A stretch of 62,651 nucleotides of DNA, the filler included, from Nemertoderma westbladi (taxonomy: Eukaryota > Animalia > Xenacoelomorpha), in NCBI GenBank assembly GCA_032718475.1. It is 4 parts of 4 records of this genome, joined end to end, with 100 filler letters (N's around TTAATTAATTAA, not from the genome) between each part and the next. Parts side by side here need not be neighbours in the genome. Positions count along the whole stretch, not along the records: positions 46,031 to 59,430 come from JAUCBJ010004111.1; 3 more parts are not named here. The stretch is one strand, 5' to 3'. The translations under genes were made by a program, and so were the position numbers. Shown in pieces: positions 12,401 to 59,530 of the stretch. A model generated the notes under the pieces. The model saw nothing but the letters and a program-made list of their open reading frames with translations. It was not told the DNA's origin and ran no database searches. The stretch's first letter is position 1. The number at the start of each line of letters is the position of its first letter.

Positions 12401-15250
12401 GAATGGTTGTTAGAGCTGGGGAAGGTGGAGTGGTTGCTGTAACTGGGGAAGGTGGAACGGTTGTTGGAACTGGGGAAGGTGGAGATGTGGTTGGAACTGG
12501 GGAAGGTGGATATGTGGTTGGAACTGGGAATGGTGGAGTGGTTGTTGGAACTGGGGAAGGTGGAGTGGTTGTTGGAACTGGGGAAGGTGGAATGGTTGTT
12601 GGGACTGGAGAAGGTGGAGTGGTTGTTGGAACTGAGGAAGGTGGACTGGTTGTTGGAACTGGGGAAGGTGGAGTGGTTGTTGGAACTGGGGAAGGTGGAA
12701 TGGTTGTTGGGACTGGAGAAGGTGGAGTGGTTGTTGGAACTGAGGAAGGTGGACTGGTTGCTGGAACTGGGGAAGGTGGAATGGTTGCTGGAACTGGGAA
12801 AGGTGGAATGGTTGCTGGAACTGGGGAAGGTGGAATGGTTGTTGGAACTGGGGAAGATGGAGTGGTTGTTGGAACTGGGGAAGGTGGAATGGTTGCTGGA
12901 ACTGGGGAAGGTAGAATGGTTGTTGGAACTAGGGAAGGTGGAATGGTTGCTGGAACTGGGGAAGGTGGAATGGTTGTTGGAACTGGGGAAGGTGGAATGG
13001 TTGCTGGGACTGGAGAAGGTGGAATGGTTGTTGGAACTGGTGAAGGTGGAATGGTTGCTGGAACTGGGGAAGGTGGAACGGTTGTTGGAACTGGGAAGGT
13101 AGAATGGTTGTTGGAACTGGGGAAGGTGGAATGGTTGTTGGAACTGGGGAAGGTGGAAAGGTTGTTGGAACTGGGGAAGGTGGAATGGTTGTTGGGACTG
13201 GAGAAGGTGGTATGGTTGTTGGAACTGGGGAAGGTGGAGTGGTTGTTGGAACTGGGGAAGGTGGAACGGTTGTTTGAATTGGAGAAGGTGGAATGGTTGT
13301 TGGAACTGGGGAAGGTTGAATGTTGTTGGAACTGGGAAAGGTGGTATGGTTGTTGGAACTGGGGAAGGTGGAGTGGTTGTTGGAACTGGGGAAGGTGGAA
13401 CGGTTGTTTGAACTGGAGAAGGTGGAATTGTTGTTGGAACTGGGGAAGGTGGAATGGTTGTAGGAACTGGGGAAGGTGGAATGGTTGTTGGAACTGGGGA
13501 AGGTGGAATGGCTGTTGGGACTGGAGAAGGTGGAATGGTTGTTGGAACTGTGGAAGGTGGAGGGGTTGTTGGAACTGGGGAAGGTAGAACGGTTGTTGGA
13601 ACTGGAGAAGGTGGAATGGTTGTTGGGACTGGAGAAGGTGGAATGGTTGTTGGAACTGGGGAAGGTGGAATGGTTGTTGGAACTGGGGAAGGTGGAATGG
13701 TTGTTGAGACTGGAGAAGGTGGAATGGTTGTTGGAACTGGGGAAGATGGAATGGTTGTTGGAACTGGGTAAGGTGGAATGGTCGTTGGGACTGGAGAAGG
13801 TGGAATGGTTGTTGGAACTGGGGAATGTGGAATGGTTTTTGGAACTGGGGAAGGTGGAATGGTTGTTGGGACTGGAGAAGGTGGAATGGTTGTTGGAACT
13901 GGGGAAGGTGGAGTGGTTGTTGGAACTGAAGGTGGAATGGTTGTTGGGACTGGAGAAGGTGGAATGGTTTTTGGAACTGGGGAAGGTGGAATGGTTGTTG
14001 GGACTGGAGAAGGTGGAATGGTTGTTGGAACTGGGGAAGGTGGAGTGGTTGATGGAACTGGGGAAGGTGGAACGGTTGTTGGAACTGGAGAAGGTGGAAT
14101 GGTTGTTGGAACTGGGGAAGGTGGAATGGTTGTTGGAACTGGGGAAGGTGGAATGGTTGTTGGAACTGGGGAAGGTGGAATGGTTGTTGGAACTGGGGAA
14201 GGTGGAATGGTTGCTGGAACTGGGGAAGGTGGAGCGGTTGTTGGAATTGGGGAAGGTGGAGATGTGCTTGGAACTGGGGAAGGTGGAGATGTGGTTGAAA
14301 CTGGGGAAGGTGGAATGGTTGTTGGAACTGGGGAAGGTGGAATGGTTGCTGTAACTGGGGAAGGTGGAACGGTTGTTGGAACTGGGGAAGGTGGAGATGT
14401 GGTTGGAACTGGGGAAGGTGGATATGTGGTTGGAACTGGGGATGGTGGAGTGGTTGTTGGAACTGGGGAACGTGGAGTGGTTGTTGGAACTGGGGAAGGT
14501 GGAATGGTTGTTGGGACTGGAGAAGGTGGAGTGGTTGTTGGAACTGAGGAAGGTGGACTGGTTGCTGGAACTGGGGAAGGTGGAATGGTTGCTGGAACTG
14601 GGAAAGGTGGAATGGTTGCTGGAACTGGGGAAGGTGGAATGGTTGTTGGAACTGGGGAAGGTGGAGTGGTTGTTGGAACTGGGGAAGGTGGAGATGTGGT
14701 TGGATCTGGGGAAGGAGGAGATGTGGTTGGAACTGGGGAAGGTGGAGATGTGGTTGGAACTGGGGAAGGTGGAGATGTAGTTGGAACTGGGGAAGGTGGA
14801 ATGGTTGTTGGGACTGGGGAAGGTGGAGTGGTTGTTGGAACTGGGGAAGGTGGAATGGTTGTTGGAACTGGGGAAGGTGGAGTGGTTGTTGGAACTGGGG
14901 AAGGTGGAACGGTTGTTGGAACTGGGGATGGTGGAGATGTGGTTGGAACTGGGGAAGGTGGAGATGTGGTTGGAACTGGGGAAGGTGGAGATGTAGTTGG
15001 AACTGGGGATGGTGGAGATGTGGTTGGAACTGGGGATGGTGGAGATGTAGTTGGAACTGGGGATGGTGGAGATGTGGTTGGAACTGGGGGAGGTGGAGAT
15101 GTGGTTGGAACTGGGGGAGGTGGAGATGTGGTTGGAACTGGGGATGGTGGAGATGTGGTTGGAACTGGGGAAGGTGGAGATGTAGTTGGAACTGGAGATG
15201 TGGTTGGAACTGGGGAAGGTGGAGATGTGATTGGAACTGGGGGTGGTGGT
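6496..15250. repeat. 27-bp G-rich minisatellite, ~324 units (consensus GGAACTGGGGAAGGTGGAATGGTTGTT); minus strand reads (TTIPPSPVP)n
   Basis: The periodicity is directly visible, and all + strand ORFs here are 9-aa repeats. Higher-order duplications exist, e.g. a 1188-bp offset between 9901 and 11089. Confidence 0.97.
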
Positions 15251-23316: not shown

Positions 23317-23416
23317 NNNNNNNNNNNNNNNNNNNNNNNNNNNNNNNNNNNNNNNNNNNNTTAATTAATTAANNNNNNNNNNNNNNNNNNNNNNNNNNNN
23401 NNNNNNNNNNNNNNNN
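23317..23416. other. Artificial contig spacer (N44-TTAATTAATTAA-N44)
   Basis: 100-bp linker carrying a stop-codon-rich palindrome; identical at three places. Confidence 0.98.
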
Positions 23417-27873: not shown

Positions 27874-29443
27874 TTAAACAGAAGTTTCACTTTGCAACCT
27901 CAGAATAAATCGATTGCGGTTTCGGGTCTATATAAGTTTCCCTGATGCGGAAGAAAGGGAGCCGGGCGACGTAGACAACGAGCGAGACCTCGGCCTGTCT
28001 GCAGACGGAAACCGAGGGCCCATCGGAGATACCGTTAACGACCTGATGGTCGCTGATGAGTTCCCAGTACTCGATGGGGTGCAGTTCGCTGGAGTTTGCG
28101 ATCACGGGTCCCGGTCTCGTGTACCTCTCCAGGAAGGCCAACGCGCTGAACTCCATACTGATGGTCCAGGCGAGATGGTTGATGATATTGTCCAACGTGT
28201 AGCGATGCTGCTGTCTGGTAACACGGAGGTACTTTTGCAGAGCTCGCGCCATAGACGGGAATATCGTTTGTGCTGACTCCAACGGTTCCATAACAGACAA
28301 CCCCGATGGTCTACCTTCATCGTACTCGTAACGCTTTATGTGAGCGAACGCTTCTTCCGCCGCTATTATTAGACGAGCTTCACGCTTTTTTACGCGGCGC
28401 TGGAAATCCTGCTCGTGATAGAATCGGTGGTTGTGCGTGGAGTCGCGCATTCCTAGCGGCGGCTGCGATCACAGCTCTAGACGCGCCGCTGCTCCCTGCG
28501 TCCGACGGCTCCCCGTCCAGATGGTACAGCGTGAAGCTCCCCCAGACCCCCGTTAGAGACGCTCCCGTTGCCAGGGTGATGGGACATGTTGACCAGAGCG
28601 GGGTTACTAGACTGGGAAATCTTTGTAGTACTGCTCGAGCACCCAGGATGCGGTCTCCTGCACGCTGAGCTGGCCCACGTTGTAGTACCGAGATTCCCCG
28701 TCTATGGTGCGCACCACCTTTACTGTGTAGCAGCACCGCTGGTGTCGTATCTCTATGAAAATAAGCGCTAAGTAGTGGATAAATAGGAGCCCGTCTACAA
28801 GAGTCACTGAAAAGTCCACTATCGATTTATAGTCGCGGTCTTTATAACGAATTATGCGGAACCAAAAGAATAACCAATAGGAGACGCATAGAGTGAGGGT
28901 TAGAAGACGTAACGCCACTTTACACATATTGATGGCAGGAAGGTAGGAGCGCGGTTGGCGGGCGTACAAACCGTAACTCCCAATCGCTAAAACGAGTAAC
29001 TTAAACGCGATGCTGATGTAGTAGCCGTCGCATGGTGTGCCGCACGGTTCCGTGTCCCACATAAGCATGGGAACCAGGAGGAAGGCTACTGGCGAAACGA
29101 ACGCGACCATGCACACGAATAGCGTGGTCATACAGGTGGCGACGTCATGGCAACGGTACCACCAGTCGCTATGGATACGGTCCCGGAAGTAGCCGGTGTA
29201 AGTGTCGCCGTGGCCGGCCCCTGAGTCACCCCCGTTGGACGAGTTCTCGTGCTCGCTCGTTAGGGTCGTTAGGGCCTCCCAGCCCCGCTGTTTCTCGTCG
29301 TTGGTCTGGGGGAGGATCTCCAGGTTGACCACAGAGTCTCTAGACGGCGGGTTGGGTTCGCCCTCAGGGTGGTAACGGGGCGAGCCGTTCGGGCGAAGGG
29401 GCATCTCAGATTCGGAATCCATCAGTTGGGTGAATGCAGTCAT
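27874..29443 (-). CDS. Vang: Van Gogh/Strabismus planar cell polarity protein, intronless; frame broken by >=4 single-base insertions (probably assembly errors)
   Basis: Four TM segments and DGESRYYNVGQLSVQ..WVLEQYYKDFPV. After frame correction it continues YNPAL...SRAVIAAAARMRDSTHN...EEAFAHIKR...MARALQKYLR and ends in the PDZ-binding motif RLQSETSV* (TAA 27876-27874). Removing 4 nt gives 521 aa. Confidence 0.93.
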
Positions 29444-29819
29444 TGGGCGGTAGAGGGCGGCGTCTTACATTCACAGAGTGAATTTTATACGTCTTTTAAT
29501 TGAAGGCAAAGCATAAACAATAGGTAAACCAATGAGCTAACAGTTGGCTCAAGGTATAAGTAGAAGACTCAAATTTCGGACGATGGATAATCGGTTAGGT
29601 ACTTGAAGAATTTTTGATGAACATATGATAACATATGAGAGAGAACCAGAGAATCCAAGTAAATACGTTGAAATTAATTTTTAAAATATGCAATGTGTAA
29701 TCTATAAAGTCTATAAGTATTCTATAAATTATAACAATAACCCTTACACAGCTACAAAATACATTTTCTTAAATTAGTTTTATATTAATCTTAAAAGTAG
29801 GTAAAATAAAATAAACTTA

Positions 29820-36424: not shown

Positions 36425-39400
36425 TTCTCTCAATATTAACAACGGTTTGTTCTTTCATCTTCTCATTGGTATCTGTCATGTCTTTTTTTAACGCCCTTTT
36501 CTCTTCTTTAGCCTCTGCTCTTTCTTCTCCCATTGTCTCCTAAACATAAATAATTTGTAGCAATAAGTCATGAAATGATGGGTACACAGAACATAAATGT
36601 CATAACGGCAATTAATAGTAGTGTTGGGCTAGACACAGATTGGGCTAAGCCAGGGCCTTCATAAAATAAAGTTATTTTATGAAGGCCCTGGCTAAGCCTA
36701 TCTACTGTGGGAGAGTGGGGCGAGCCACGAAGTGGAAGAGGTCACACACAGATACTACTGTACTAATCGGACGATCACACTCATTAGTCTCATAGTGATA
36801 TTCTAATTGAAGCCAACATTAGAGGGTTACCTACAATATAATACCTTATCTACTACTGTACAAGGGCAATCATAGTATGTAGACCCATATCGGGTGAATT
36901 TAAACATAAATGCACAGTTATATTTATCTTCAACCACTACAGGTATTAATATTTCTTTAAATAAGCTGAATTATTTTGATTTTTGCCCCCAATTGGATGA
37001 TTTTATTCACTGAAACATTTAGTTATTTCACTCCGAGTACTCGGTACTCCGCACTAACCCTACAATAACATTACAGAAAGGGGCCTTCTAGAGTCGCACT
37101 GTGTTAAATAGTGGATAAAATAAAAGCACCTGTCGTCTTCTTAGCAAAGCTTTTTTCTACTAAATAAAATACCAAATTCTAGAACATTTTTATGTATGAA
37201 TAGCTACTGTACGTAGCTATTGCATTGTTGCCCAGCTACGTATGGGATAAACAAAGTGTTGTTGATATTGTGTATTTAATAAATAGAATAAATGATCTGC
37301 ATATGTAATACATGCAACTGGGGGGGGGGGGGGGGGGGGGCAGGTACCCGCCGAATAACGACACTACATGTACTGTATATTCCAGGACATGGTTTATTCG
37401 GTTACAAAAACCCTAGTACAGTAAAATAAAAACAGTACCGCTATAATTTCATTCCATTTAGTTAACTACTGTAAGAAAAAACCAAGGCAACATACGTATA
37501 TTCTAGAACACAATATTATTTGTAGGCATATTGTTGCTACGTTGCTTAGTAATAGGAGTTTTAACGTGGAGGAAAACATTCAGTCTGCTGTGCATAGGGT
37601 AACATACCACCGGTACCGCTACAGTAAAGTTCGTTGATGCTGTGTTTTAATTAAATATCAATGAATTCTAGAATTCAGGAGTCCTTGATAAATACAGTGT
37701 TTCAATAATATTGTGTAATAGTGATTGTTATTAATATTTTCATTGATAGATAGTATCTTTATTTAATCATCTATCATGGGCGTTTATTGCCGGGCGTTCG
37801 GCTGCGGCAGAAACAGTAAGAAAATGCCCAGGTTGAGTTTTTTCCGGTTCCCGAAGAACAACAACCTCTGCCGAATCTGGCTGGAGAACTGCGGCAACGA
37901 AAAGCTCCAGGAGAAAACAGTGGAATCTTTGCACAAGAGCTGTCGCCTGTGCGCCATACATTTCGAGGACCGAGAATTCTTCGATCCGGTCCACAAGAAC
38001 ATGTTGAACAAGGGAGCCATTCCTACCGTGTTCGACATGAGCAAACGTGTATGGCCGATAACTAAATGGGCCGAGAACAACGGCAAAGAGAACAGCGTGG
38101 GTCTGTGGTACCACAACCAGAACTACATAAAAGTAGACATAGGAGCGATTCGGAGTGAATTACTGGCGGAGGTTGGGCGTTCGAGGTCGTACGGTAATCG
38201 CTGGGTCTCAATGCGTCCCAGAGATCGGCTGTTATTGGCTATTTACCGGAGAAAATTGGTACAATCGAAGAGGAGATTGAAGGTTGTCGCAAATACGGTG
38301 GGAGAAGGGAAACTGAAACATTTGGAGAAATTAACTCCTGTTCAGATGGAAATAATTCAGATGAAAATAAACGCAATAGTCCGAAAGCAAAGCTCAAAAT
38401 AATGTATAGACACTCTGTTTTCAGTTATACAGTATATAGGCCTACGGTAATGTAGGCCTACAGTTTAGCTGACCTACAATTTGGTATAAATGAAGCAGGA
38501 ATACATGTAGGCCTACAGTTTGTATGTACTGTATAGTTCAGTAAGATGCGATAATTTTATTTTACAAAATAATTGTACTGAATGAACTCAAACTAATTAA
38601 ATATTTGTTATTTAATACATTTATATAAATTCTTTATTTTAAATTCCATATTTTATTTAATTTGTCTCCAATCAATCCTCCAAGTTAAATTTGACTTGAT
38701 TTGATAGTTACATGTTTTCACACGTATATACGCCTCCTGGCTACACAGATTAGAACCTATGCTATACAGTATAGGCCCACAGTTAGTTGCCGCACACATT
38801 ACATTACAGTAGGCTAATGTTCTTATAGTGCACTGTTTTGTAAACCTACAGTACACATAGACTACATTCCGTTATTTACCTGCAGTTTCACCATTTCTTG
38901 CTGCAGCCCAGCAATTTTTTGATTTGTTTCACGAAGTTTATCTCGCATTTCATTTAATTGAATATGTTTTCTGAAAAATAAAACAGGAAGGATAAATGTA
39001 TAATTCTATATTTTGTGCCTCACGATACTGGGACTTGACAGTGTGAAATGTGCAAAAATAATTTATGCAGTAAAACAATTCAATAAGCTTATTCACAGCT
39101 TATTCGCAGTATTTAAATTAGGGCGATTATTTTTTCTAATTTCAAATTTAATTCAATAGTTTTGCAATTTTCTTTTATGTATTATACACTACTGTATGTA
39201 TATCGATAAGTTTTCACTGCAGGTTGTTTCTGATAAATATAGGCGAGGGAGGGGGAGGGGTGGGTGTTAATTGGTAGTTAATGGTTATCACATTAAAGTA
39301 AAGTTCAATATAATTTTAAGTATAAACTTACACAGCTTTATCTGACATGCATTCATTTAAATCAGTTATAGCACTCCTGTGCTCACCCGAAATCAGTTCC

Positions 39401-42281: not shown

Positions 42282-42384
42282 GTAATACTGTATCATATCA
42301 GTATAATCCTACCTATAATCGTAGGGGCCTACTGCAGTACTGCTGTACTGACTGACTATATAGTATATACCCGAGTACTGGAGT

Positions 42385-43215
42385 ATGGCTTTACGATTCT
42401 GTATACGTTCCTACGGCAAGCTGCCGAATTCAATATCTACCCATAAACCCAAAGTCGTCGCTTTCGCTAATATATTCAGACAAAGGAATTCCTTGGCTTT
42501 CTCACAACACAAACTCTGCGCCAACATATCTCGATGGACACCGCGGCAAGTCGGAAACTCGCACTCGGTGTTACTTCAACCTCTCCGAAAGGACACCACC
42601 TCGGCGAACTACAACTCCGAGGGCGACAAAGAATTATCCGGATTTCTCGAGGAAGAAATCAAAATGGAGAAAGAACAATCAGTTCCGGCACCGACACTTT
42701 CCGGCTACAATATTGAGAAAAACGGCGCAGAAGTTACTTTTTCTCGGCAACTTGGCGGAGAAGAAATAGTTATAAAGATGAATATAAATAAATCATTGGA
42801 AATGGGCAGTCAGAGCCAGGACGACGAACAGGATTTAAACGAGGCGGGTAATATGGGGAGCATAGCGAGTGTGCCGGTAATAACGATAGATATACGGAAA
42901 CCCGGGAGTAGGATGATGAGTATAACAGGCACCTTTACTGAGGATATCCTCAGGAAAGACCTTGACGGTGATATTAATGTGCTTGAGGTGCAAGAGGTTG
43001 CTCTGCATGATGGGGAATGGAAGGATTCAACTTATTCAGTGTCCGGGGATGTTATGGACCAGACGATGTACGATCTGATTCTAGGGATGTTGGAGGAAAG
43101 AGGTTTGGATGCCGACTTTCTGCAGTCGTTGCAGCAGTTTAGCACTTCGTATGAACACAGACAGTACGTTGGGTTCCTGCAGGAGTTTAAGCGGTTTGTA
43201 GACCACACTAATTAG
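42385..43215 (+). CDS. C1QBP: C1QBP/p32 (MAM33 family) mitochondrial matrix protein, intronless
   Basis: Basic N-terminal presequence; EGDKELSGFLEEEIKMEK; YSVSGDVMDQTMYDLILGMLEERGLDADF...YEHRQYVGFLQEFKRFV. Confidence 0.92.
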   Translation: MALRFCIRSYGKLPNSISTHKPKVVAFANIFRQRNSLAFSQHKLCANISRWTPRQVGNSHSVLLQPLRKDTTSANYNSEGDKELSGFLEEEIKMEKEQSVPAPTLSGYNIEKNGAEVTFSRQLGGEEIVIKMNINKSLEMGSQSQDDEQDLNEAGNMGSIASVPVITIDIRKPGSRMMSITGTFTEDILRKDLDGDINVLEVQEVALHDGEWKDSTYSVSGDVMDQTMYDLILGMLEERGLDADFLQSLQQFSTSYEHRQYVGFLQEFKRFVDHTN

Positions 43216-45930: not shown

Positions 45931-46030
45931 NNNNNNNNNNNNNNNNNNNNNNNNNNNNNNNNNNNNNNNNNNNNTTAATTAATTAANNNNNNNNNNNNNN
46001 NNNNNNNNNNNNNNNNNNNNNNNNNNNNNN
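45931..46030. other. Artificial contig spacer
   Basis: N-TTAATTAATTAA-N, 100 bp. Confidence 0.98.
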
Positions 46031-49000
46031 GCCCCTATGCCCTTTATTGTTTGGGTTCCTATTTTCCCAGCTGATATAATAATATTAACTCCACACAGCG
46101 CCCCTATGCCCTTTATTGTTTGGGTTCCTATTTTCCCAGCTGATATAATAATATTAACTCCACACAGCGCCCCTATGCCCTTTATTGTTTGGGTTCCTAT
46201 TTTCCCAGCTGATATAATAATATTAACTCCTCACAGCGCCCCTATGCCCTTTATTGTTTGGGTTCCTATTTTCCCAGCTGATATAATAATATTAACTCCA
46301 CACAGCGCCCCTATGCCCTTTATTGTTTGGGTTCCTATTTTCCCAGCTGATATAATAATATTAACTCCACACAGCGCCCCTATGCCCTTTATTGTTTGGG
46401 TTCCTATTTTCCCAGCTGATATAATAATATTAACTCCACACAGCGCCCCTATGCCCTTTATTGTTTGGGTTCCTATTTTCCCAGCTGATATAATAATATT
46501 AACTCCACACAGCGCCCCTATGCCCTTTATTGTTTGGGTTCCTATTTTCCCAGCTGATATAATAATATTAACTCCACACAGCGCCCCTATGCCCTTTATT
46601 GTTTGGGTTCCTATTTTCCCAGCTGATATAATAATATTAACTCCACACAGCGCCCCTATGCCCTTTATTGTTTGGGTTCCTATTTTCCCAGCTGATATAA
46701 TAATATTAACTCCTCACAGCGCCCCTATGCCCTTTATTGTTTGGGTTCCTATTTTCCCAGCTGATATAATAATATTAACTCCACACAGCGCCCCTATGCC
46801 CTTTATTGTTTGGGTTCCTATTTTCCCAGCTGATATAATAATATTAACTCCACACAGCGCCCCTATGCCCTTTATTGTTTGGGTTCCTATTTTCCCAGCT
46901 GATATAATAATATTAACTCCACACAGCGCCCCTATGCCCTTTATTGTTTGGGTTCCTATTTTCCCAGCTGATATAATAATATTAACTCCTCACAGCGCCC
47001 CTATGCCCTTTATTGTTTGGGTTCCTATTTTCCCAGCTGATATAATAATATTAACTCCACACAGCGCCCCTATGCCCTTTATTGTTTGGGTTCCTATTTT
47101 CCCAGCTGATATAATAATATTAACTCCACACAGCGCCCCTATGCCCTTTATTGTTTGGGTTCCTATTTTCCCAGCTGATATAATAATATTAACTCCACAC
47201 AGCGCCCCTATGCCCTTTATTGTTTGGGTTCCTATTTTCCCAGCTGATATAATAATATTAACTCCACACAGCGCCCCTATGCCCTTTATTGTTTGGGTTC
47301 CTATTTTCCCAGCTGATATAATAATATTAACTCCTCACAGCGCCCCTATGCCCTTTATTGTTTGGGTTCCTATTTTCCCAGCTGATATAATAATATTAAC
47401 TCCACACAGCGCCCCTATGCCCTTTATTGTTTGGGTTCCTATTTTCCCAGCTGATATAATAATATTAACTCCACACAGCGCCCCTATGCCCTTTATTGTT
47501 TGGGTTCCTATTTTCCCAGCTGATATAATAATATTAACTCCTCACAGCGCCCCTATGCCCTTTATTGTTTGGGTTCCTATTTTCCCAGCTGATATAATAA
47601 TATTAACTCCTCACAGCGCCCCTATGCCCTTTATTGTTTGGGTTCCTATTTTCCCAGCTGATATAATAATATTAACTCCTCACAGCGCCCCTATGCCCTT
47701 TATTGTTTGGGTTCCTATTTTCCCAGCTGATATAATAATATTAACTCCACACAGCGCCCCTATGCCCTTTATTGTTTGGGTTCCTATTTTCCCAGCTGAT
47801 ATAATAATATTAACTCCACACAGCGCCCCTATGCCCTTTATTGTTTGGGTTCCTATTTTCCCAGCTGATATAATAATATTAACTCCACACAGCGCCCCTA
47901 TGCCCTTTATTGTTTGGGTTCCTATTTTCCCAGCTGATATAATAATATTAACTCCCCACAGCGCCCCTATGCCCTTTATTGTTTGGGTTCCTATTTTCCC
48001 AGCTGATATAATAATATTAACTCCACACAGCGCCCCTATGCCCTTTATTGTTTGGGTTCCTATTTTCCCAGCTGATATAATAATATTAACTCCTCACAGC
48101 GCCCCTATGCCCTTTATTGTTTGGGTTCCTATTTTCCCAGCTGATATAATAATATTAACTCCACACAGCGCCCCTATGCCCTTTATTGTTTGGGTTCCTA
48201 TTTTCCCAGCTGATATAATAATATTAACTCCACACAGCGCCCCTATGCCCTTTATTGTTTGGGTTCCTATTTTCCCAGCTGATATAATAATATTAACTCC
48301 TCACAGCGCCCCTATGCCCTTTATTGTTTGGGTTCCTATTTTCCCAGCTGATATAATAATATTAACTCCTCACAGCGCCCCTATGCCCTTTATTGTTTGG
48401 GTTCCTATTTTCCCAGCTGATATAATAATATTAACTCCACACAGCGCCCCTATGCCCTTTATTGTTTGGGTTCCTATTTTCCCAGCTGATATAATAATAT
48501 TAACTCCTCACAGCGCCCCTATGCCCTTTATTGTTTGGGTTCCTATTTTCCCAGCTGATATAATAATATTAACTCCTCACAGCGCCCCTATGCCCTTTAT
48601 TGTTTGGGTTCCTATTTTCCCAGCTGATATAATAATATTAACTCCTCACAGCGCCCCTATGCCCTTTATTGTTTGGGTTCCTATTTTCCCAGCTGATATA
48701 ATAATATTAACTCCTCACAGCGCCCCTATGCCCTTTATTGTTTGGGTTCCTATTTTCCCAGCTGATATAATAATATTAACTCCTCACAGCGCCCCTATGT
48801 CCTTTATTGTTTGGGTTCCTATTTTCCCAGCTGATATAATAATATTAACTCCTCACAGCGCCCCTATGCCCTTTATCGTTTGGGTTCCTATTTTCCCAGC
48901 TGATATAATAATATTAACTCCTCACAGCGCCCCTATGCCCTTTATTGTTTGGGTTCCTATTTTCCCAGCTGATATAATAATATTAACTCCTCACAGCGCC

Positions 49001-50238
49001 CCTATGCCCTTTATTGTTTGGGTTCCTATTTTCCCAGCTGATATAATAATATTAACTCCTCACAGCGCCCCTATGCCCTTTATCGTTTGGGTTCCTATTT
49101 TCCCAGCTGATATAATAATATTAACTCCTCACAGCGCCCCTATGCCCTTTATTGTTTGGGTTCCTATTTTCCCAGCTGATATAATAATATTAACTCCTCA
49201 CAGCGCCCCTATGTCCTTTATTGTTTGGGTTCCTATTTTCCCAGCTGATATAATAATATTAACTCCACACAGCGCCCCTATGCCCTTTATTGTTTGGGTT
49301 CCTATTTTCCCAGCTGATATAATAATATTAACTCCACACAGCGCCCCTATGCCCTTTATTGTTTGGGTTCCTATTTTCCCAGCTGATATAATAATATTAA
49401 CTCCACACAGCGCCCCTATGCCCTTTATTGTTTGGGTTCCTATTTTCCCAGCTGATATAATAATATTAACCCCCCACAGCGCCCCTATGCCCTTTATTGT
49501 TTGGGTTCCTATTTTCCCAGCTGATATAATAATATTAACTCCACACAGCGCCCCTATGCCCTTTATTGTTTGGGTTCCTATTTTCCCAGCTGATATAATA
49601 ATATTAACTCCACACAGCGCCCCAATGCCTTTTATTGTTTTGGTTCCTATTTTCCCAGCTGATATAATAATATTAACTCCTCACAGCGCCCCTATGCCCT
49701 TTATTGTTTGGGTTCCTATTTTCCCAGCTGATATAATAATATTAACTCCTCACAGCGCCCCTATGCCCTTTATTGTTTGGGTTCCTATTTTCCCAGCTGA
49801 TATAATAATATTAACTCCTCACAGCGCCCCTATGCCCTTTATTGTTTTGGTTCCTATTTTCCCAGCTGATATAATAATATTAACTCCTCACAGCGCCCCT
49901 ATGCCCTTTATTGTTTGGGTTCCTATTTTCCCAGCTGATATAATAATATTAACTCCTCACAGCGCCCCTATGCCCTTTATTGTTTTGGTTCCTATTTTCC
50001 CAGCTGATATAATAATATTAACTCCACACAGCGCCCCTATGCCCTTTATTGTTCGGGTTCCTATTTTCCCAGCTGATATAATAATATTAACTCCTCACAG
50101 CGCCCCTATGCCCTTTATTGTTTTGGTTCCTATTTTCCCAGCTGATATAATAATATTAACTCCTCACAGCGCCCCTATGCCCTTTATTGTTTGGGTTCCT
50201 ATTTTCCCAGCTGATATAATAATATTAACTCCTCACAG
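46031..50238 (+). repeat. 69-bp tandem array (61 units, truncated by the contig edge) derived from a DENND1 splice acceptor plus exon start
   Basis: Unit: CGCCCCTATGCCCTTTATTGTTTGGGTTCCTATTTTCCCAGCTGATATAATAATATTAACTCC(A/T)CACAG. The next copy of cacag|CGCCCCTATGCCCTTTAT at 50239 continues into the real exon. Confidence 0.95.
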
Positions 50239-53200
50239 CGCCCCTATGCCCTTTATCGTCGGGGTCCATTTATCCCTTCTACCCTACGTGGATACGATGA
50301 ACGCCGTAGTCTTCGATATCGATACAAACAAACTCGTAAATCCCCACGAAGATATCAAGTTAATCCCTCAAGGAATTGTGAGTTTAGGTTTATTTTATTA
50401 ATTAACTGTAATAATAATCATAATCCTAATCGCCTTTATTGCCGAATTGTAGAGAATGTTTTGGGATATGTAACTTGATCTTTATATTCTATTGGGGTAT
50501 CTGTAGTGTTAATAGATAGTTGAAAACCCAAATTCCAAATGTGGGTTAGGAATAGCCAGGGTTTTTAATTGACCAAATGTTCTATGGCACTGGCGCCAGG
50601 CGCCATAGAGAATTTAATACTACCACTACTACAGACAGATACTACCGCCGTACTACTTTACCACCTACTAGTAGTTTCGCAGTGGGCTTACGGCGTAGTT
50701 TATTTGCTCAGCAAAAATAAATAAAAATTAAACAACTAACATTCATATTAATTAATATAACATAATTAATATGATGAAAATGAATGAAAAGGACTAGAAT
50801 TGCTCAACATCGGGTAACATTCTGGTATACCTAAAATATGTGAGAATTCAAAACCTAACAAATAATTGTAATCCTTTATATAAATATATAAATAAACTTC
50901 TAACTTTACGTTTCAAATTCAATTCTTGCAATTTTTAATGATACTATTACCTACAACGGAAGTGAAATTTTTGAAAATGTAGAAAATTTTGAAATGTTGA
51001 TGTTTTTGTACTGTTTTAACTGTTTTGAAGTTTGATAGAACGGCTTTACTGTAATGGGTTGACATCGGTTTTCGCCAGCATTGAATTATTTTTTTACCAC
51101 AAAACTGCGATTTACTTTTTTATTTTTACTCAATTGTCATCATAAACCTTCTTTAGGGCTACAATCGGGCAGCCTTGAATAGGCTTTCCAGGATTTGGAA
51201 GTCCCATGGAATTCATGGGAAACTTAAGGTTCGATTATTTAGAGCAGCAGTAGTTCCTGTACTCCTCTATGGAAGTCCATGCTGGGCTCTAACTGCTGAG
51301 GATACCAAATCTCTGGATGCCACATTCACAAGAATGCTACGCCGGGTTCATTGTATCAAGTACAATCAACACATCTCCAACCAGACACTATATATAACAT
51401 TGGAGGTGTCTCATTGGTTTCCCCAAGCTTGACACTAGAAAAATAACCGCCTCCGCTTTGCATGATATTGCTTTCGCCATGAGGACCACCTAGTGCATAA
51501 TCTTGTACTTTGGCAGCCTCATGGAGTGAATAAACTTTAGATATTAGTGCTCATACAAAAGCTGGTGGAGTAAAGAAAGCAAATGGTTGGATAGTTATCC
51601 GCGCCCTCCCTGCCTTATAGGTAACAGCCAAGAGAGAGGATCTTTCGGGTTGCCTCCGGTGCTTCGTGTTTCACACTTTCACGGATAGCTTTACACAATG
51701 GGCAATGGTATCGTTTATTGATTTGGTTATGAAGACACGCTTCCGTAACCGGCTCGTTCCCTTCATTTTGCAACGATATCGTTTAAAATTACCTTGGATA
51801 CTAAAATCAGCTGTGATACTTTTCCTAAATTGCCGTTTTTTACTGTGTGAAACTTAAAAATGTTCAACTTTAATAATTTAACCTATCACTAATATTCATA
51901 TAATACTTAACCTATTTTATAATAATTATAATTATAAATTTGTCTTCAGAGTCAGGTTGCCAAACTTTTTGCGAATTCTATATTAATTAATCTATGTTTT
52001 TGTGTCACGTTGTCAGCTTATCTGTGTAAATTTAAGGTAATTTAATATCGTATCTGTATATAAAATATAATTATTTTCCGTGTAATTACTCTAACTTTAA
52101 AGTGAAAATGGGGCATGGGGCATCAAAGTTGTAAACATTTTTACTTATTGCAACATTTCATGTATTGAGTAATAAGTTATATCAAATTGTAGCCTGATTG
52201 TAGCGTTTATGGTTTTGCCTTTATTGGAACAATCTGCTATAGTTGGTGTTAGCTAGTATTTCAATTTATTAATAATATAAAAAGTTTATTTGTTTACATT
52301 GGTAACCCTTAGTACAACCGTAAATCAATTTCGAAGTTACAGCTGTTAATAACAAAACACTGAACAAACACATTTAAGTTATGTGGTAATTATGTATAAT
52401 ATAGGATTTTTTTTATTCCTAAATTAATAATAATGTTAAATAATAATCCGCACAATTTTGTTTTAAGGATCTTTTGACATAAATTTTAATATAATTTATA
52501 AACTGGCCGCTTTTGGGGTTTGATACGTCTCCAGCCTGGGGCCAATGACTCAAGTTCATCCATCATTGTATTGAAACGATTATTCCAATTTTCTATAACC
52601 TCATCAATATCTCTCTTCTCCAATGCACCAGGTTTCTTGAATGTTGATTTGGGAACTTTACGTATTTTTTTCGGCACCATAACTTTGTTTACCTTTTCCA
52701 TCTGACTCTGGTTCTCTACCTCTTTCAGGCTGTCTACGTTTTTCGTTTGGTTCCTAAGGTGAGGCAGGCTTTTGCTGAATGTTTGTTTAGTGGTAGCAGA
52801 GAAACTTCTTCTACTATATTCACTAGTTACTCGCGATACGCCTTTACCTTCTGTGATTTTGGCTACAGATATCTCCTTGTGACCTGGAAGTTGTTTCGCT
52901 TCCAAGGATTTAGATGAGATTTGATTTTGAGCAGAGATTTTCCTGGATTTTCTAGCTGTAGCCATTGTAGTAGCTTTCCTCATAAAACTATCTTGTGATG
53001 TTTTGTTATCTTTATCTTCCTTTAGTGCCAATCCCGCTTTCTTTGGTTCAGGTTTCAAATTTTTAACGGGTAGTTTATCGCTCTTCCTTCTATTTCCCTC
53101 TGGTTTATTGACTGATTCTCGTTTCAAAGTGGAGTTTGAGTTTGTTACCAGCTCTGTTGGGGCCTCACGAATTGATTCTATGCTAATATTTTGCAATCCC

Positions 53201-56200
53201 TTGGCGACTTGTGTGGTCAACTCTTGAATCTCACCCTGGTAGAACTCCTCCGCAGTAAGCTCGTAGACACTTTGCTTAACGACATCGCGATTGGGAGTGA
53301 TGGAGTCAACCGTGCCGAACACTAACTCCTTCTCTATCGGCGGTATATATTCGGGCATCCCCGAGCTGATCGGGTACCCAACGTTGGAAAGAACACGTAT
53401 CGCATCCAGTCGCGTCTTGTACACCGGGTGTTCCGACTGATCGCGCATTAACTTCATTACGAGGTTGTTTCGCAGCGAGCCCAACAAGGGAACCGCGTAG
53501 TTCACTTCTATAATCGAGTCGCATATCATCTGGTAGGTGTGCGGATTGGCATGTTCTAGAAGGTTAACTAATCTACGGATGACGCTTTCAATGAAAATTG
53601 TCCGTTTGTTCTGTTGCAGCTCAGGTTCAGTCGATTCCTGATTATTGATGTCGAGAATCTGTTCGGATCCCTGTTGTAACTTATACCACGGTCGTTGGAT
53701 TACTTTACCAACAAGCATCTGATTGTCGCCATCCAAAACAAACCGGAGTATTGCTTCCAATGAATACGCAACTGATCTAGTATTAGTTGGAGACAGCATC
53801 AGGAACAACTCTTTCGCCCCTTTATCAATGTAATCGCGATTGTTCTTGAAGCATCGTATAATCTTGGAGGACATTGTTAGACCCCCTTCGTGGTCGAATC
53901 TGCGGTATACTGGTCTGACTTCGTCCGACCCCCTTTTTTCTTTTGCAACTATTTTATGTTTGTGGATATCAATGAGGTCATCTTCAACGTTGTTAAACAT
54001 GTCGTCAATGTTCGGATCATCCATACGAGGGTATCCTCCTGGAGGACTAACCATGAACTCTTGGTCTGAGGCGTGGCATGGTGGTGGAGGAGGTAGCTCC
54101 TTTCCATCAAAAACAGGTGATATTGATGACTCCGTGTGATCAGAAGTAGATTCACCATCTGCAATATTACTCTGTTTCTCTGGTGATTCCCTAGCTTTTA
54201 GCTTGTATTGTTTCTCGATCACTTCATCCAGCTGTTTGTCGATATAAAGATAGTCATTATCAACCAATCTCTTTAAATAATATTTTGGGAAACATTGTGA
54301 GACACAAACGTAGCGAAGGTATTGAACCGCCGCTACTAGGATGTCAGACCGATCATTTGCGAACACCACACCAGATACCGGACCATCGAATACAAGCTCA
54401 CGAACAAGTTCAGCCTTGAAGTTCCATATCTTAAACATTCGGTCACAGCCGGATGTTACAAAGAGTCCGGTGTCTGGCGAACTGCAAAGTCCATTAATCT
54501 GGGCTTCGTGGGCTGTTTCGGAATCTGGAGAAGCCCAAATGACGTCTCCTCTTTTGTTCACTTCACGGATGATTGTTGGCTGGGGCAATCCTTCACAAAT
54601 CTGACATTGAATTTTCCGGCTGTGGAAGGTGATAATTTTTACGGATTTCTCAGGAAGAACAACGCAAAGCACATTACGTATCATAGCCATATAAAGCGGA
54701 CACTTTGGACCAATAACGACTCGCTCAATTTGCAGCTTAACCTTTAGCAAATCCACAATGACAATCCTCCACAGCTTGATGTAACCTTGTCTACACGCTG
54801 AAGCTAAATGACATGAAGAACCGACACAGACAGTGTGAGCGCCCCTCCCAAGGTGGCTGTAGGACGATGTCATACATTGAATGGGATCTTTATGTGCTCG
54901 ATGCCAGTGGGACATAGTATAAGAACAACTATAGATTACGGAAATACACCCGTTTATGTGTCCCCCCATGATCATGCATCCCCCAACATCGTCAACAATA
55001 AACTGCGACACATCAACAGCAACCAAACAAAGCGTATGGCTCTTAGGCTGATAAGAAGTTTTCTTTTGTACGGGATCGCAACTGAAGTCTGCAACTACAA
55101 TTTCGTGAGTTTCAGCCAAGACCATAACTAAGTTGCTCATGCATGGATCGTAAGCCCAAGCTTCGAGATCCTTAGTGCCGCAGACACGGCCAGGATTAAA
55201 TGACATTTCCACCACGCCCGTAAGAGCGTTTACTAGACGCATAGTCCAATCTTCAACAGTAATTAACAGTTTTGGGGATTGTTTGTAAAACGTTATTTTT
55301 TTCATTCTTGTTATGGCGGAATCGCGCTGAACTATTTGCGCGAACTCTTCATGAACGCTGGCGATATCAAAGAGATACAAGGCGCGGTTGGTCCAACAGT
55401 ACATGTGAGACTTAGAAACCAATTCGATATCCCTTATTGTAGTATTCAGAGCGCATTTGTAGACTAGAGCGAAGTTATCCATTCTCCACATGGTTATTAC
55501 CCCTGATTGGCAGGCCGCTATAAAGAATGGGTCTGTTGGATGAATAGACAGTCCTGTGATTGGATGTTCGTGAACGTTGTCCATCCTGCGTATTACTTTC
55601 AATGAAGTGGCGGTCAGTATTCGCAATGACCCGCTCTCCATGCCAACAACAAAGTAGTTATTGGTTGCGTAATAAATCCATCTAGAAGCTACATTTGGAA
55701 GCGTAAAAGGATGAAACGATACTTCATCCTCGAACGTGCAGTCTAACATGTGTAGGCCGGTATTGGTGAGAACAAACAGATTATCAAGAACATCCTCGTA
55801 ATGTATTCTTTTAACAACCTCGTCATGGCCGATGATGCATGTAAAATTGAAATACTCGTGTATAGATGCTAATTTAACTTTCCAAAAACGAAGACTTCCT
55901 TTATGGCCGGTAACTAAAGTGTCGCTGGTTTTTATGTAAAATATACAAGTAACCGGATCTCGTAATGGGTGTGAGCACGCTTCGGTAAAACTGTAGGATC
56001 GCCCCCCAAGAACCTTGATGGCGGCCTGATCGCAGCAGTAACACACGGCGAAGGTGCTACCCGGTACATGGACCAATAATGTGCTGCAGAAACTCAAAGG
56101 GAATGTGGACGAGCTAACTTGTTTTGTGATGATGTCGAAGGACCAGTACTGGACATTGGAAAAACAGGTTATTGGGTTCTTATACAGACACATAAATTCA

Positions 56201-59200
56201 AATACGTCTTCTGTGGTTTTGTGAGACACAGCCAGTAGAGAACGTGATACATTCATTTTTGCTGCTCGTTTTGGTCCATTTGGAATCAGAGAAAATTCAT
56301 CGCTTGCTCCTGTCTTTGTTTGTAAATACTCGAAAATATCACGTTGTACACGCCCCCATGCCTTTATCGCACGCCTCACCCCAGGACTATCTTTTATTAT
56401 TATATTTGCCATAATTTAAAATTATAGAGGTAGTTAGTGCGAACTATGTTACAGTTCAATGATTTTAGCTAGCCCTGGTCAAATAAATGTATTAAATTCT
56501 AGAAAATTGTTATGGTTTCTGTGCGGGAAAATTACATTTTTACTGCACGGATAGTGTGGCTTATGTAATTTTATCTTTCTGCTGCGAAGTTCTAATTATG
56601 TTCTTATTTTGTTAGATTTCCTCCCTAAAATCCGGTATAAAGTCCCAAGTTGGTTACGGAGACAGTTTCTCTCGACTGTTCCTTCGGACTCTAGTAGATA
56701 TATTTGGTAATTACCGGGCCGGACTGCAGTCCAAGGATAACTCGCTAAACTTCAACCGAGACCGGTTCATCGAGTCCTTCCCGCCGCAGCACAGACCCTT
56801 CATGGAGGACATGATGGAGTTGCAGACCTTCCAACAGTTCATCGACAGTCGTCTCGAGTTGCTTCTCTCCCCCTCCGGATTCTCGGACGAGTTCGAGCTG
56901 GAAATCAACGCGAGTCGCGCCGCTAAGAAGAACCTTGACTCCACCACAATCGCGAATATGAAACGAACCGGCGAGAATGTTTTACATTCGGTTAAAAGCA
57001 AAGCGAAACTCCGGGCCAAGGACACCGCTGCGTTGGCTAAGCTCGGTATGAAACACGTTCGTACGAAGTTGGTGCAACGCGATGATGGTTCCATTGGACA
57101 CCCGTTCAATACCACCAAAACGGTTAGTTTATTAGCTTCTGGTGCAGTCCACATGGATACATTGCAGTTTTAGGGCACAGCGGAATTTCTAAACAATGCC
57201 AATGGTAATTGTAGTCCCGCCATGAGGGATAATTCCCTGTTTTGGCAAAGATATGTTGAGAAACAGATGCCATGTGCATCAAATTGCTAAAATATTAGTT
57301 TTCTATTTGAAAAGTGCTAAATTTCGAAAAATGCTAATTCGTTACGAAAAATTATCATTTTTATAGGCATTTTACATTTTAACATAATAAGAATACATTT
57401 AATGGTACTGAATGAAACGCAGAGAATATTTATTATTTTGATTTATTATTTGATTATTTTGTTGTTTTTGGAAATTCCTAGCATTCCTAGCAGCTATCAC
57501 CACCCCCCCCCCCCCCCCCCACACCCCCCGTCTCTCCACTATAAAATATAGTGGTTTTTATTTTTATTGTGATTTAACTTGTCAATATTTTGAGGTCCAC
57601 AAATCTGATGGGTTGGATTACAATCCCTCGTTTAGTCCAGTAATTAGTCCCTAGTATGTTGTACCAGCCAAAATGATAAACTGATTAAATTACTAACAAA
57701 TTAACTTTGTGGAATTAGCAAAATAATAAAAAACTCACGGATAGATTGTGAATAATTTTATGGTTACCTGCGTTACCCCATTTGTTTCACCATTTTTGGC
57801 TATTTATGTATTTATATATTGCAGCCAACGGACTCAAATAACACGGTGGCGGCCGCGATCCATCGAGCCGGCACAATGGAGACTCTGAGTCCGCCACGGA
57901 CCGCGACCGTTTCTCGGAGCGGAAGTTCCCCGATGTCGCGGCCCCAGTCCTCGGATCGGTCGATGGGCCGTAAACCCAACTCCTGTGCTAACCTACTGGG
58001 CGGTCTCGGAACGGGAGATCTGGAGGATGATCTAGCTGCTACTGCGTTGGTAGGTTTAGTTTGTATCGCTGCAAAAACATATCTGGCGGAGCAATGTAAG
58101 AAAACGCGAAAGTACCAAAAATTATCTATTACATGAATAACAAATATATTTATTATCCGTAATATCATATCCATTGATAATAATCGTATATAAGTAAATC
58201 GAATTAGTTTTACTTAGATGAACTTCTACTTTATTCCCCTCTTTATTCTCTTTCCCCCCTTACTATACGTACTCCACTTTATTTCCCGTCTTTATGTTAT
58301 TTCCCTCTCCATATACGTACTCTACTTTATTTCCCCCTTTATGTTATTTTCTCCCCTTCCTATACGTACTCTACTTTATTTCTTATGTGCTCTACTTTAT
58401 TTCCCTCTTTATGTTATTTCCCCCTTCCTATACGTATTCTAGTTTATTTCCCTCTTTATGTTATTTCCCCTTCCTATATGTACTGTACTTTATTTCCCTC
58501 TTTATGTTATCTCCCCCCTTCCTTTACGTACTTTACTTTATTTCCTTTTTATGTTATTTCCCCCTTCCTTTACGTACTCTACTTTATTTCCCTCCCCAGT
58601 CGCACTCACCTCCGGGTAACCTCCGCGGCAGCTCTTCCACTTCGGACCTCCTCGACATAGACGTTCTGTTCCCGCGGATCTCCCCGCACGGGAGTCCGCT
58701 CCGTCGCCAACTCTCCCCGATCGCGGACCTCCCGTCCCCGACGGACGCGGACCGCGGTAGCCCGTTCTACACACCCGAGTCGACGCCGCCCCAACGCCGT
58801 AAACAACCCAAACCCCAACCGCCCCCGCGGCCCAACCGCCGTCGTCCGCAGGTCGACCTGCTGACCGACGAGGCCCCCTACCGGTACGACTCAGTATACA
58901 GCAGTCAGTCTAACGACGTGGATCGAGACGAACTGTTCACATCGTCGGTGGACGTCCTCAGCGGACCGAGTGGAGTCGATCTGTTAACCGACGAGGGGAA
59001 CCCGCGCCCACAGACACTGTACCCAGTCTCCGGGGACACCTTCAGTCTCCCTCAGGGCATGTCGTTGCCTTGGCAACAACCGCGACCCCGCCTGATGGAA
59101 CATCGGACAGACACCCCCTCGAAACATTTACCGAGAAGTCCAGTAAAGAGTCCGTTGCTAGCTCTCAGTTCCTCCGGGTCCGAATCTTCTAATCGGTCCT

Positions 59201-59430: not shown

Positions 59431-59530
59431 NNNNNNNNNNNNNNNNNNNNNNNNNNNNNNNNNNNNNNNNNNNNTTAATTAATTAANNNNNNNNNNNNNN
59501 NNNNNNNNNNNNNNNNNNNNNNNNNNNNNN
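59431..59530. other. Artificial contig spacer
   Basis: N-TTAATTAATTAA-N, 100 bp. Confidence 0.98.

What the first reader, a model, noticed from the sequence alone, without database searches (positions are those of the whole stretch)
46031..50377. A DENND1 intron-exon junction amplified >=61 times, in frame: an array of alternative or decoy 3' splice sites
Seen: each 69-bp unit is the start of a conserved DENN-domain exon (APMPFIV) plus an intron tail with a branch-like TTAAC and CACAG, and a second TTTTCCCAG. The 62nd junction (50238/50239) is the true exon, which ends at gtgagt (50378). Units are 23 codons and stop-free in the exon frame, and the commonest variant (CCA/CCT) is synonymous. 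Copies differ from the real exon partly by CpG loss (atcg>attg), and a few units retain CG. Inference: either the spliceosome ignores ~120 upstream AGs, half in a context identical to the true site, or acceptor choice adds n x 23 aa inside the GEF domain. It could also be an intermediate of intron gain by tandem duplication.
Basis: partly seen in the sequence, partly recalled or inferred. Interest (0 to 1): 0.78.

Follow-up and report, generated by a model that had tools for sequence, protein, structure and literature searches.

The report
Mirage repeat copying a spliced junction
An intron of an animal's DENND1 gene ends in at least 61 head-to-tail copies of its own splice acceptor and exon start, yet the one spliced transcript seen joins only to the last copy, so this is a large example of the tolerated "mirage" repeats known from lancelets, with the twist that most of each copy likely derives from the end of the previous exon rather than from intron DNA.

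Summary
The array is real. It has 61 ungapped 69-bp units (46031-50238) ending in the true DENND1 exon (50239-50377). It starts at a contig spacer, so 61 is a minimum, and the gene's 5' half is absent. Unit-matching contigs are far deeper than the exon contig in two DNA samples. One run holds a spliced contig that joins the upstream exon straight to 50239 and 50377 to 56616, with no unit included. The n x 23 aa isoform idea therefore has no support. This is a 'mirage' minisatellite (lancelets; compare human CBS 844ins68, F7 IVS7), and the scan has already noted many in this genome. New here: the 'intron tail' resembles the end of the upstream exon. It matches at 22 of 30 columns (51 of 50,000 random 30-mers reach that score), and its translation matches homologues' IFIPVLP motif (8 of 5,000 shuffles). 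The unit therefore looks like a spliced exon-exon junction plus ACAG, which also explains the open frame. Its origin is probably RNA-templated repair or duplication plus deletion at an old intron; intron birth by duplication is not excluded. The array's 5' end was not seen.

The parts
45931..46030 (.). 100-base spacer/gap (N44, 12 letters, N44); the array is cut here and its 5' end is unseen
   Evidence: same spacer at 23317-23416 and 59431-59530; no upstream DENND1 exon to its left
46031..50238 (+). Minisatellite of 61 x 69 bp forming the 3' end of a DENND1 intron; 9 distinct variants at 8 positions; T at -6 enriched towards the exon
   Evidence: T in 8 of the first 30 units and 21 of the last 31, Fisher P 0.002; all other variants lie in units 41-60
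50170..50187 (+). Last unit nt 1-18: exact copy of the first 18 nt of the true exon (APMPFI)
50189..50203 (+). Last unit nt 20-34: ambiguous joint; 9 of 15 nt match the exon's continuation, but it encodes VWVPI, like the homologues' upstream IFIPV
50205..50234 (+). Last unit nt 36-65: likely decayed copy of the upstream exon's last 28 nt; now carries the putative branch point (CTGAT, A at 50214) and the pyrimidine stretch; an out-of-frame second AG ends at 50210
   Evidence: hand alignment to the loose-end letters (22 matches, 6 mismatches, 2 one-base gaps); null; frame
50235..50238 (+). ACAG: the 4 nt between the upstream-exon-like part and the exon start; holds the acceptor AG that is used
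   Evidence: sequence; spliced contig begins at 50239
50239..50377 (+). True DENND1 exon (139 nt, phase 2 to phase 0), end of the DENN domain
50378..56615 (+). Next intron (GTGAGT...TTAG), 6238 nt, crossed by the spliced contig
   Evidence: loose end behind 50377 equals window 56616-56645
56616..57122 (+). Next DENND1 exon (dDENN domain); its 3' end is inferred from a GTTAGT donor

Best explanation
The array is an intronic minisatellite whose last unit supplies the splice acceptor of a DENND1 exon; the spliced transcript seen uses only that last acceptor, likely because only it is followed by a complete exon with a strong donor 139 nt away, and the unit likely began as a copy of the spliced junction (end of the upstream exon, ACAG, start of this exon). 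Shown: the array; its overlap with the exon; multi-copy presence in two samples; one exact splice to 50239; no good donor inside the units; statistical likeness of the unit to the upstream exon's end. Inferred: (1) exon definition picks the last site, as in lancelet mirages and CBS 844ins68. (2) The founding event duplicated about 63 nt in spliced-mRNA coordinates through imperfect homology between exon +20..+38 and the upstream exon's IFIPVLP codons. This happened either by RNA/cDNA-templated repair or by genomic duplication followed by loss of all but 4 nt of the copied intron. (3) The upstream-exon copy decayed into today's branch point and pyrimidine tract. (4) Slippage or unequal exchange amplified and homogenised the unit, and the protein fixes the last 18 nt. 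The open frame is inherited from coding DNA rather than selected.
For:: X4 contig (2950 nt, depth 59) matches 50239-50377 with 0 differences. Its letters behind 50377 equal window 56616-56645, and its letters before 50239 read as the upstream DENN exon; unit contigs are much deeper than the exon contig in X1, X2 and X3 (e.g. X3 612.6 vs 25.9; X1 1735.7 vs 17.4; a sign of many copies, not a count). X3, from a second sample, has a contig running 50227-50470 across the unit/exon joint; the best GT/GC 9-mer in the array matches 5 of 9 donor positions (one copy; all others 4 or fewer), against 7 of 9 for the two real donors; the DENN match extends into the last unit (human DENND1A 225-239 with a 2-residue gap; 29.5 to 32.8 bits); unit peptide vs 81 distinct homologue 20-mers is reached by 8 of 5000 nucleotide shuffles, 11 of 5000 dinucleotide shuffles and 0 of 3017 window 48-mers before an AG. 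The hand-counted DNA score of 24 is reached by 51 of 50,000 composition-matched 30-mers (6 of 20,000 when anchored). VWVPI in fixed register is reached by 70 of 200,000 random 6-change versions of the exon's own continuation; known cases splice normally.
Against: Only one spliced contig from one run, which the tool labels 'DNA?'; contigs drop rare forms. The likeness to the upstream exon was noticed after the fact; amino-acid shuffles reach the score in 157 of 5000; the DNA score was counted by hand on 30 letters only. Unit nt 20-34 also match the exon's own continuation (9 of 15). That the intron is old rests on recall of a vertebrate intron at this codon, not on a call: none of 80 homologous loci (51 distinct junctions, 22 with two or more tblastn segments) has an intron there. 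RNA folding gives no structural reason for the choice (junction unpaired probability 0.26 at the true site vs 0.22-0.38 in 58 decoys).
Confidence: 0.6

Rival explanations
1. Plain mirage: the unit is simply the old intron tail plus the exon start, and its likeness to the upstream exon's end is chance. Splicing works as in the best explanation.
For: This is the described anatomy of mirages. Unit nt 19-43 align to the exon's continuation (P 0.027). Both sequences are C/T/A-rich, and the test was post hoc.
Against: Protein- and DNA-level likeness fall in the same register, ending 4 nt before the acceptor. Over unit nt 35-49, 11 of 15 letters match the upstream exon against 3 of 15 for the downstream exon (hand count).
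Confidence: 0.17
2. Intron birth by tandem duplication: this lineage had no intron here. A 63-nt coding segment (21 codons) was duplicated, one copy gained an AG and the first copy a GT, and the whole intron is the amplified, decayed duplicate.
For: The unit equals a spliced junction in a 21-codon register. None of 80 homologous loci has an intron at this codon, although 22 of the 51 distinct ones give several tblastn segments. The mechanism is documented, and mirages were proposed as its source.
Against: The mRNA junction has no AG|G proto-splice site (the upstream exon ends TC), so donor and acceptor would both have to arise anew in one register. The locus set is biased towards uninterrupted exons (best 80 of 208 kept; one of three patterns spans the junction) and its hosts were not identified. 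I recall a phase-2 intron at this codon in human DENND1A (untested; the search found no paper), and three other recalled positions agree with segment ends.
Confidence: 0.13
3. Functional alternative acceptors: some transcripts use upstream CAG sites and add n x 23 hydrophobic residues to the DENN domain, and selection keeps the frame open.
For: 69 = 23 codons, open frame, and net indels against the spliced sequence sum to +6. 6 of 9 distinct variants are synonymous (null mean 2.8, P 0.023).
Against: The one spliced contig has no unit. The excess falls to P 0.055 by site and 0.10 without the exon-state variant. An open frame is expected from coding ancestry and by chance (52%). 102 of 111 long homologues carry an APMP-like motif, and those printed show no repeat of it.
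Confidence: 0.07
4. Assembly expansion of one or a few copies.
For: The array ends at a contig break, and no long read was seen.
Against: Variants are ordered along the array. Unit contigs are tens of times deeper than the exon contig in three runs from two samples.
Confidence: 0.03

Closest known systems
Amphioxus 'mirage' minisatellites (globins BflGb6 and BflGb9, Adh3, troponin C, PGBD5); PMC3087553 and PMC3902484, matching passages read
   Same: Tandem copies spanning an intron/exon border, acceptor side included (BflGb6); splice signals reiterated; normal splicing reported; concerted evolution.
   Different: At least 61 copies against 3-6 for BflGb6. The unit's 'intronic' part looks like the upstream exon's end, which the passages read do not describe.
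Human CBS 844ins68; seen through passages of PMC2630376 and PMC1802585; the primary paper, PMID 12228232, was not held
   Same: A 68-bp duplication of an intron/exon junction giving two identical 3' splice sites; the distal one is used and the mRNA is normal.
   Different: Two copies only; out of frame; made of true intron plus exon start. G runs between the sites are reported to steer the choice; not tested here.
Human F7 IVS7 37-bp VNTR and related donor-side minisatellites (6-16, CBS IVS13, lamin B2, PDGF); PMC1557585, abstract, introduction and passages read
   Same: A minisatellite whose end monomer spans the exon border; pseudo-sites mostly silent; the site next to the exon wins.
   Different: Donor side, 5-25 copies; in 6-16 and CBS IVS13 the nearest pseudo-sites are used a little.
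[quoted passage not shown]
   Same: Intron sequence that resembles flanking coding DNA in tandem.
   Different: Needs AGGT or AGGC proto-splice sites or a cryptic donor in the duplicate. The junction here has none, the units carry no good donor, and it is not shown that the intron is new.

Membership tests
Mirage minisatellite | Tandem repeat whose unit spans an intron-exon border of the host gene | tested here: met
Mirage minisatellite | Splice signal reiterated in the copies | tested here: met
   60 upstream CAG junctions, 26 identical to the true site over -26..+18
Mirage minisatellite | Normal splicing to the authentic site | tested here: met
   one spliced contig in one run; rare forms not testable with contigs
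Mirage minisatellite | Length instability between alleles | tested here: inconclusive
   depth ratios differ between runs, but contig depth is no copy number
Mirage minisatellite | Intronic part of the unit copied from pre-existing intron | tested here: inconclusive
   it is intron today, but resembles the upstream exon's end; ancestral state unseen
Intron gained by tandem duplication | Intron sequence similar to flanking exons | tested here: met
Intron gained by tandem duplication | AGGT-like proto-splice site in the duplicated coding segment | tested here: not met
   the spliced junction reads TC|C; best donor-like 9-mer in units 5 of 9
Intron gained by tandem duplication | Intron absent in outgroups | tested here: inconclusive
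   absent in 80 of 80 loci, a biased set of unidentified hosts; vertebrate intron at this codon recalled, not tested
Intron gained by tandem duplication | Donor lies in the first copy of the duplicate | not testable with these tools
   array's 5' end is outside the contig; no genome held
Recursive-splicing (ratchet) array | AG|GT junctions that regenerate a donor | tested here: not met
   junctions are AG|CG and AG|CT
DENND1/connecdenn gene | DENN then dDENN domains with best hits to DENND1 | tested here: met
   uDENN half not in the window

The most novel reading that the evidence does not exclude
The intron itself was born by tandem amplification of a 21-codon piece of DENND1 coding sequence, and its branch point, pyrimidine tract and acceptor evolved from former codons. 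In a genome full of splice-junction satellites, this amplification would then be a working engine of intron gain whose source sequence is still readable.
Probability: 0.13. Interest if true: 0.72.

Novelty: new variant of a known kind. Interest (0 to 1): 0.4.

Why it matters
As a mirage it is one more case of a known, tolerated repeat, and the scan has noted dozens in this genome. It is still a clean natural test of how one acceptor is chosen over 60 near-identical ones upstream. The added point is the unit's make-up: if the acceptor region really descends from the previous exon's codons, this locus records either RNA-templated repair or intron birth, two processes for which source sequences are rarely identifiable. 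One long read through the array's 5' end and one look at the vertebrate gene structure would tell them apart.

Tried and rejected
No genome was held for this window. No RNA holder was listed by the run search; this blank is no evidence on expression. X4 had no contig on the unit (50170-50237) or on unique intron stretches; lack of cover is not used as evidence, only the joins are. No contig entering the array from its 5' flank appeared among the loose ends. Three word-index protein searches found nothing; the HMMER search did. The unit was not found in JGI metagenome contigs. The upstream exon's end and 5' DENND1 exons are not in the window (111 homologues of 450 aa or more out of 173 proteins, P0127 left out). 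The idea that the unit's tail is a decayed copy of exon nt 40-71 was rejected (P 0.46-0.88). RNA structure hiding the decoys was not supported. Recursive splicing was rejected (no AG|GT). The second AG (TTTTCCCAG) would shift the frame and meet TGA at once. The units alone hit no Pfam family. Paper searches for a minisatellite built from a spliced junction, for acceptor-side arrays beyond lancelets and for DENND1A intron positions gave nothing usable; a search of earlier scan notes for the spliced-junction reading gave none. The library lacks most subscription papers, including the original Adh3 mirage and CBS splicing papers; no supplements were read. The organism was not identified beyond 'animal-like'.
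Full report
Observation. The window holds 61 ungapped 69-bp units from 46031 to 50238, followed by a 62nd copy of the exon start that continues as a real exon. The exon is 50239-50377, 139 nt, followed by GTGAGT. It matches the end of Pfam DENN weakly (E 6.7e-4) and human DENND1A/B chain residues 240-286. The next exon, from 56616, carries dDENN, and named relatives of its best hits are mostly DENND1A. The array starts directly at a 100-base spacer that recurs at two other places. Neither the upstream exon's end nor any 5' exon (111 homologues by tblastn and profile) lies in the window, so 61 is a minimum and the 5' end is unseen. There are 9 distinct variants at 8 positions. T at -6, the state of the true site, rises from 8 of the first 30 units to 21 of the last 31 (P 0.002), and all other variants lie in units 41-60, as in an ordinary homogenised minisatellite. 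Of 122 AGs one is the true site; 26 of the 60 upstream CAG junctions equal it over -26..+18.

Is it real? Four runs from three samples hold the stretch. In X1, X2 and X3, contigs on the unit are far deeper than the exon contig (X1 1735.7 vs 17.4; X3 612.6 vs 25.9). The tool warns this is no copy number; I take it only as multi-copy. X1 may be the window's source (no differences over the exon). X2/X3 are another sample with many intronic differences, and X3 has a contig running 50227-50470 across the unit/exon joint.

Which acceptor is used? Run X4, labelled 'DNA?' by guess, holds a 2950-nt contig that matches exactly 50239-50377 with no difference. Its letters behind 50377 equal window 56616-56645, and its letters before 50239 are not unit sequence but translate by hand as the DENN residues that precede APMP in homologues. 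It is therefore a spliced form that uses the last acceptor. This is one contig of one run; contigs drop rare variants, so minor isoforms are not excluded. The units have no good donor (best 5 of 9 consensus positions in one copy vs 7 of 9 for the two real donors) and no AG|GT, and folding shows no difference in accessibility between the true junction and 58 decoys. The most likely selector is exon definition: only the last AG is followed by a whole exon and a strong donor. That step is inferred from known cases, not tested.

In-frame argument. An open frame survives in 52% of shuffles of unit nt 27-67. Six of nine variants are synonymous (P 0.023), falling to 5 of 8 sites (P 0.055) and 4 of 7 without the exon-state variant (P 0.10). 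This is inconclusive.

What the unit is made of. Searches with the last unit plus exon extend the DENN match into the unit: Pfam positions 140-186 instead of 155-186, and human DENND1A 225-239 with a two-residue gap. Against 81 distinct homologue 20-mers preceding APMP, the unit peptide's score is reached by 8 of 5000 nucleotide shuffles, 11 of 5000 dinucleotide shuffles, 157 of 5000 amino-acid shuffles and 0 of 3017 window 48-mers before an AG. At DNA level, unit nt 36-65 align by hand to the last 28 letters of the upstream exon printed, with 22 matches, 6 mismatches and two one-base gaps. That score is reached by 51 of 50,000 composition-matched 30-mers, and 6 of 20,000 when anchored at the junction. 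Codons VWVPI (nt 20-34, almost wholly outside those 30 letters) fit the homologues' IFIPV in the same register; 70 of 200,000 random six-change versions of the exon's own continuation do as well. Against this: the tests are post hoc, and nt 20-34 also match the downstream exon at 9 of 15. I read that overlap as the imperfect homology that seeded a duplication 63 nt long in spliced coordinates. The unit is thus probably exon start + upstream-exon end + ACAG, a spliced junction with four extra bases. This also explains the open frame without selection.

Origin. Two routes keep an old intron: repair templated by RNA or cDNA, or a genomic duplication of exon end, intron and exon start that then lost all but 4 nt of the copied intron. 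A third makes the intron new. None of 80 homologous loci has an intron at this codon (74 by pattern, 6 by eye; 51 distinct junctions, 22 with two or more tblastn segments). The set is biased (best 80 of 208 kept; one of three patterns spans the junction). From recall only, human DENND1A has a phase-2 intron here; three other positions I recall agree with segment ends, and a paper search could not confirm it. The spliced junction lacks an AG|G proto-splice site. I therefore favour the old intron.

Comparison. Earlier notes on this genome (73 of 79 notes fit the first look-up, 8 shown each time, unreviewed) pointed to lancelet mirages. I then read the matching passages: tandem duplications of intron-exon borders on both sides, 3-6 units in BflGb6, no interference with splicing, and a proposed route to intron gain (PMC3087553; PMC3902484). 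Human CBS 844ins68 is a two-copy acceptor duplication that uses the distal site (passages of PMC2630376 and PMC1802585; primary paper not held). F7 IVS7 and four other genes are donor-side counterparts (PMC1557585 abstract, introduction and passages). Intron gain by tandem duplication is covered in PMC4974935 (abstract and introduction), PMC3443670 and PMC3629103 (passages). I found no description of a mirage unit holding the upstream exon's end, in a library that lacks most subscription journals.

Verdict. Real, silent as far as seen, and of a known kind that is common in this genome. The likely exon origin of its acceptor region makes it a variant worth one follow-up. Interest 0.4.

Noticed in passing
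window 52486-56412 (-): Intronless 1308-codon WD40 ORF (WDR87/WDR97-like by Atlas features; WD40 by Pfam) nested antisense inside the DENND1 intron after the exon.
   Followed up: partly
window 58218-58599 (+): A second, diverged tandem array (about 8 x 47 bp, pyrimidine-rich, only one internal AG) runs up to the likely acceptor of the last DENND1 exon at 58600, and is open in that exon's frame.
   Followed up: partly
window 6496-15195: 322 copies of a 27-bp unit; on the minus strand it reads as a Pro/Ser/Thr-rich mucin-like repeat over long open frames. Coding status unknown.
   Followed up: no
window 51122-51665: Fragment of an extremely abundant dispersed repeat (summed contig depth tens of thousands of times single copy in X1-X3; weak DUF6451 hit), probably a retrotransposon piece.
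   Followed up: partly
window 23317-23416, 45931-46030, 59431-59530: Three identical 100-base spacers; the pieces they join need not be neighbours.
   Followed up: yes
window 28607-29461 (-), 37767-38399 (+), 42364-43212 (+): Strabismus/Vang exon, THAP-domain ORF and an intronless MAM33/C1QBP ORF on the piece before the array.
   Followed up: partly
L016, L017, L021, L022, L028, L037-L041, L045: Homologous loci appear to have an intron 3 (L016) or about 15 codons after APMP, a position this gene's exon reads through.
   Followed up: no
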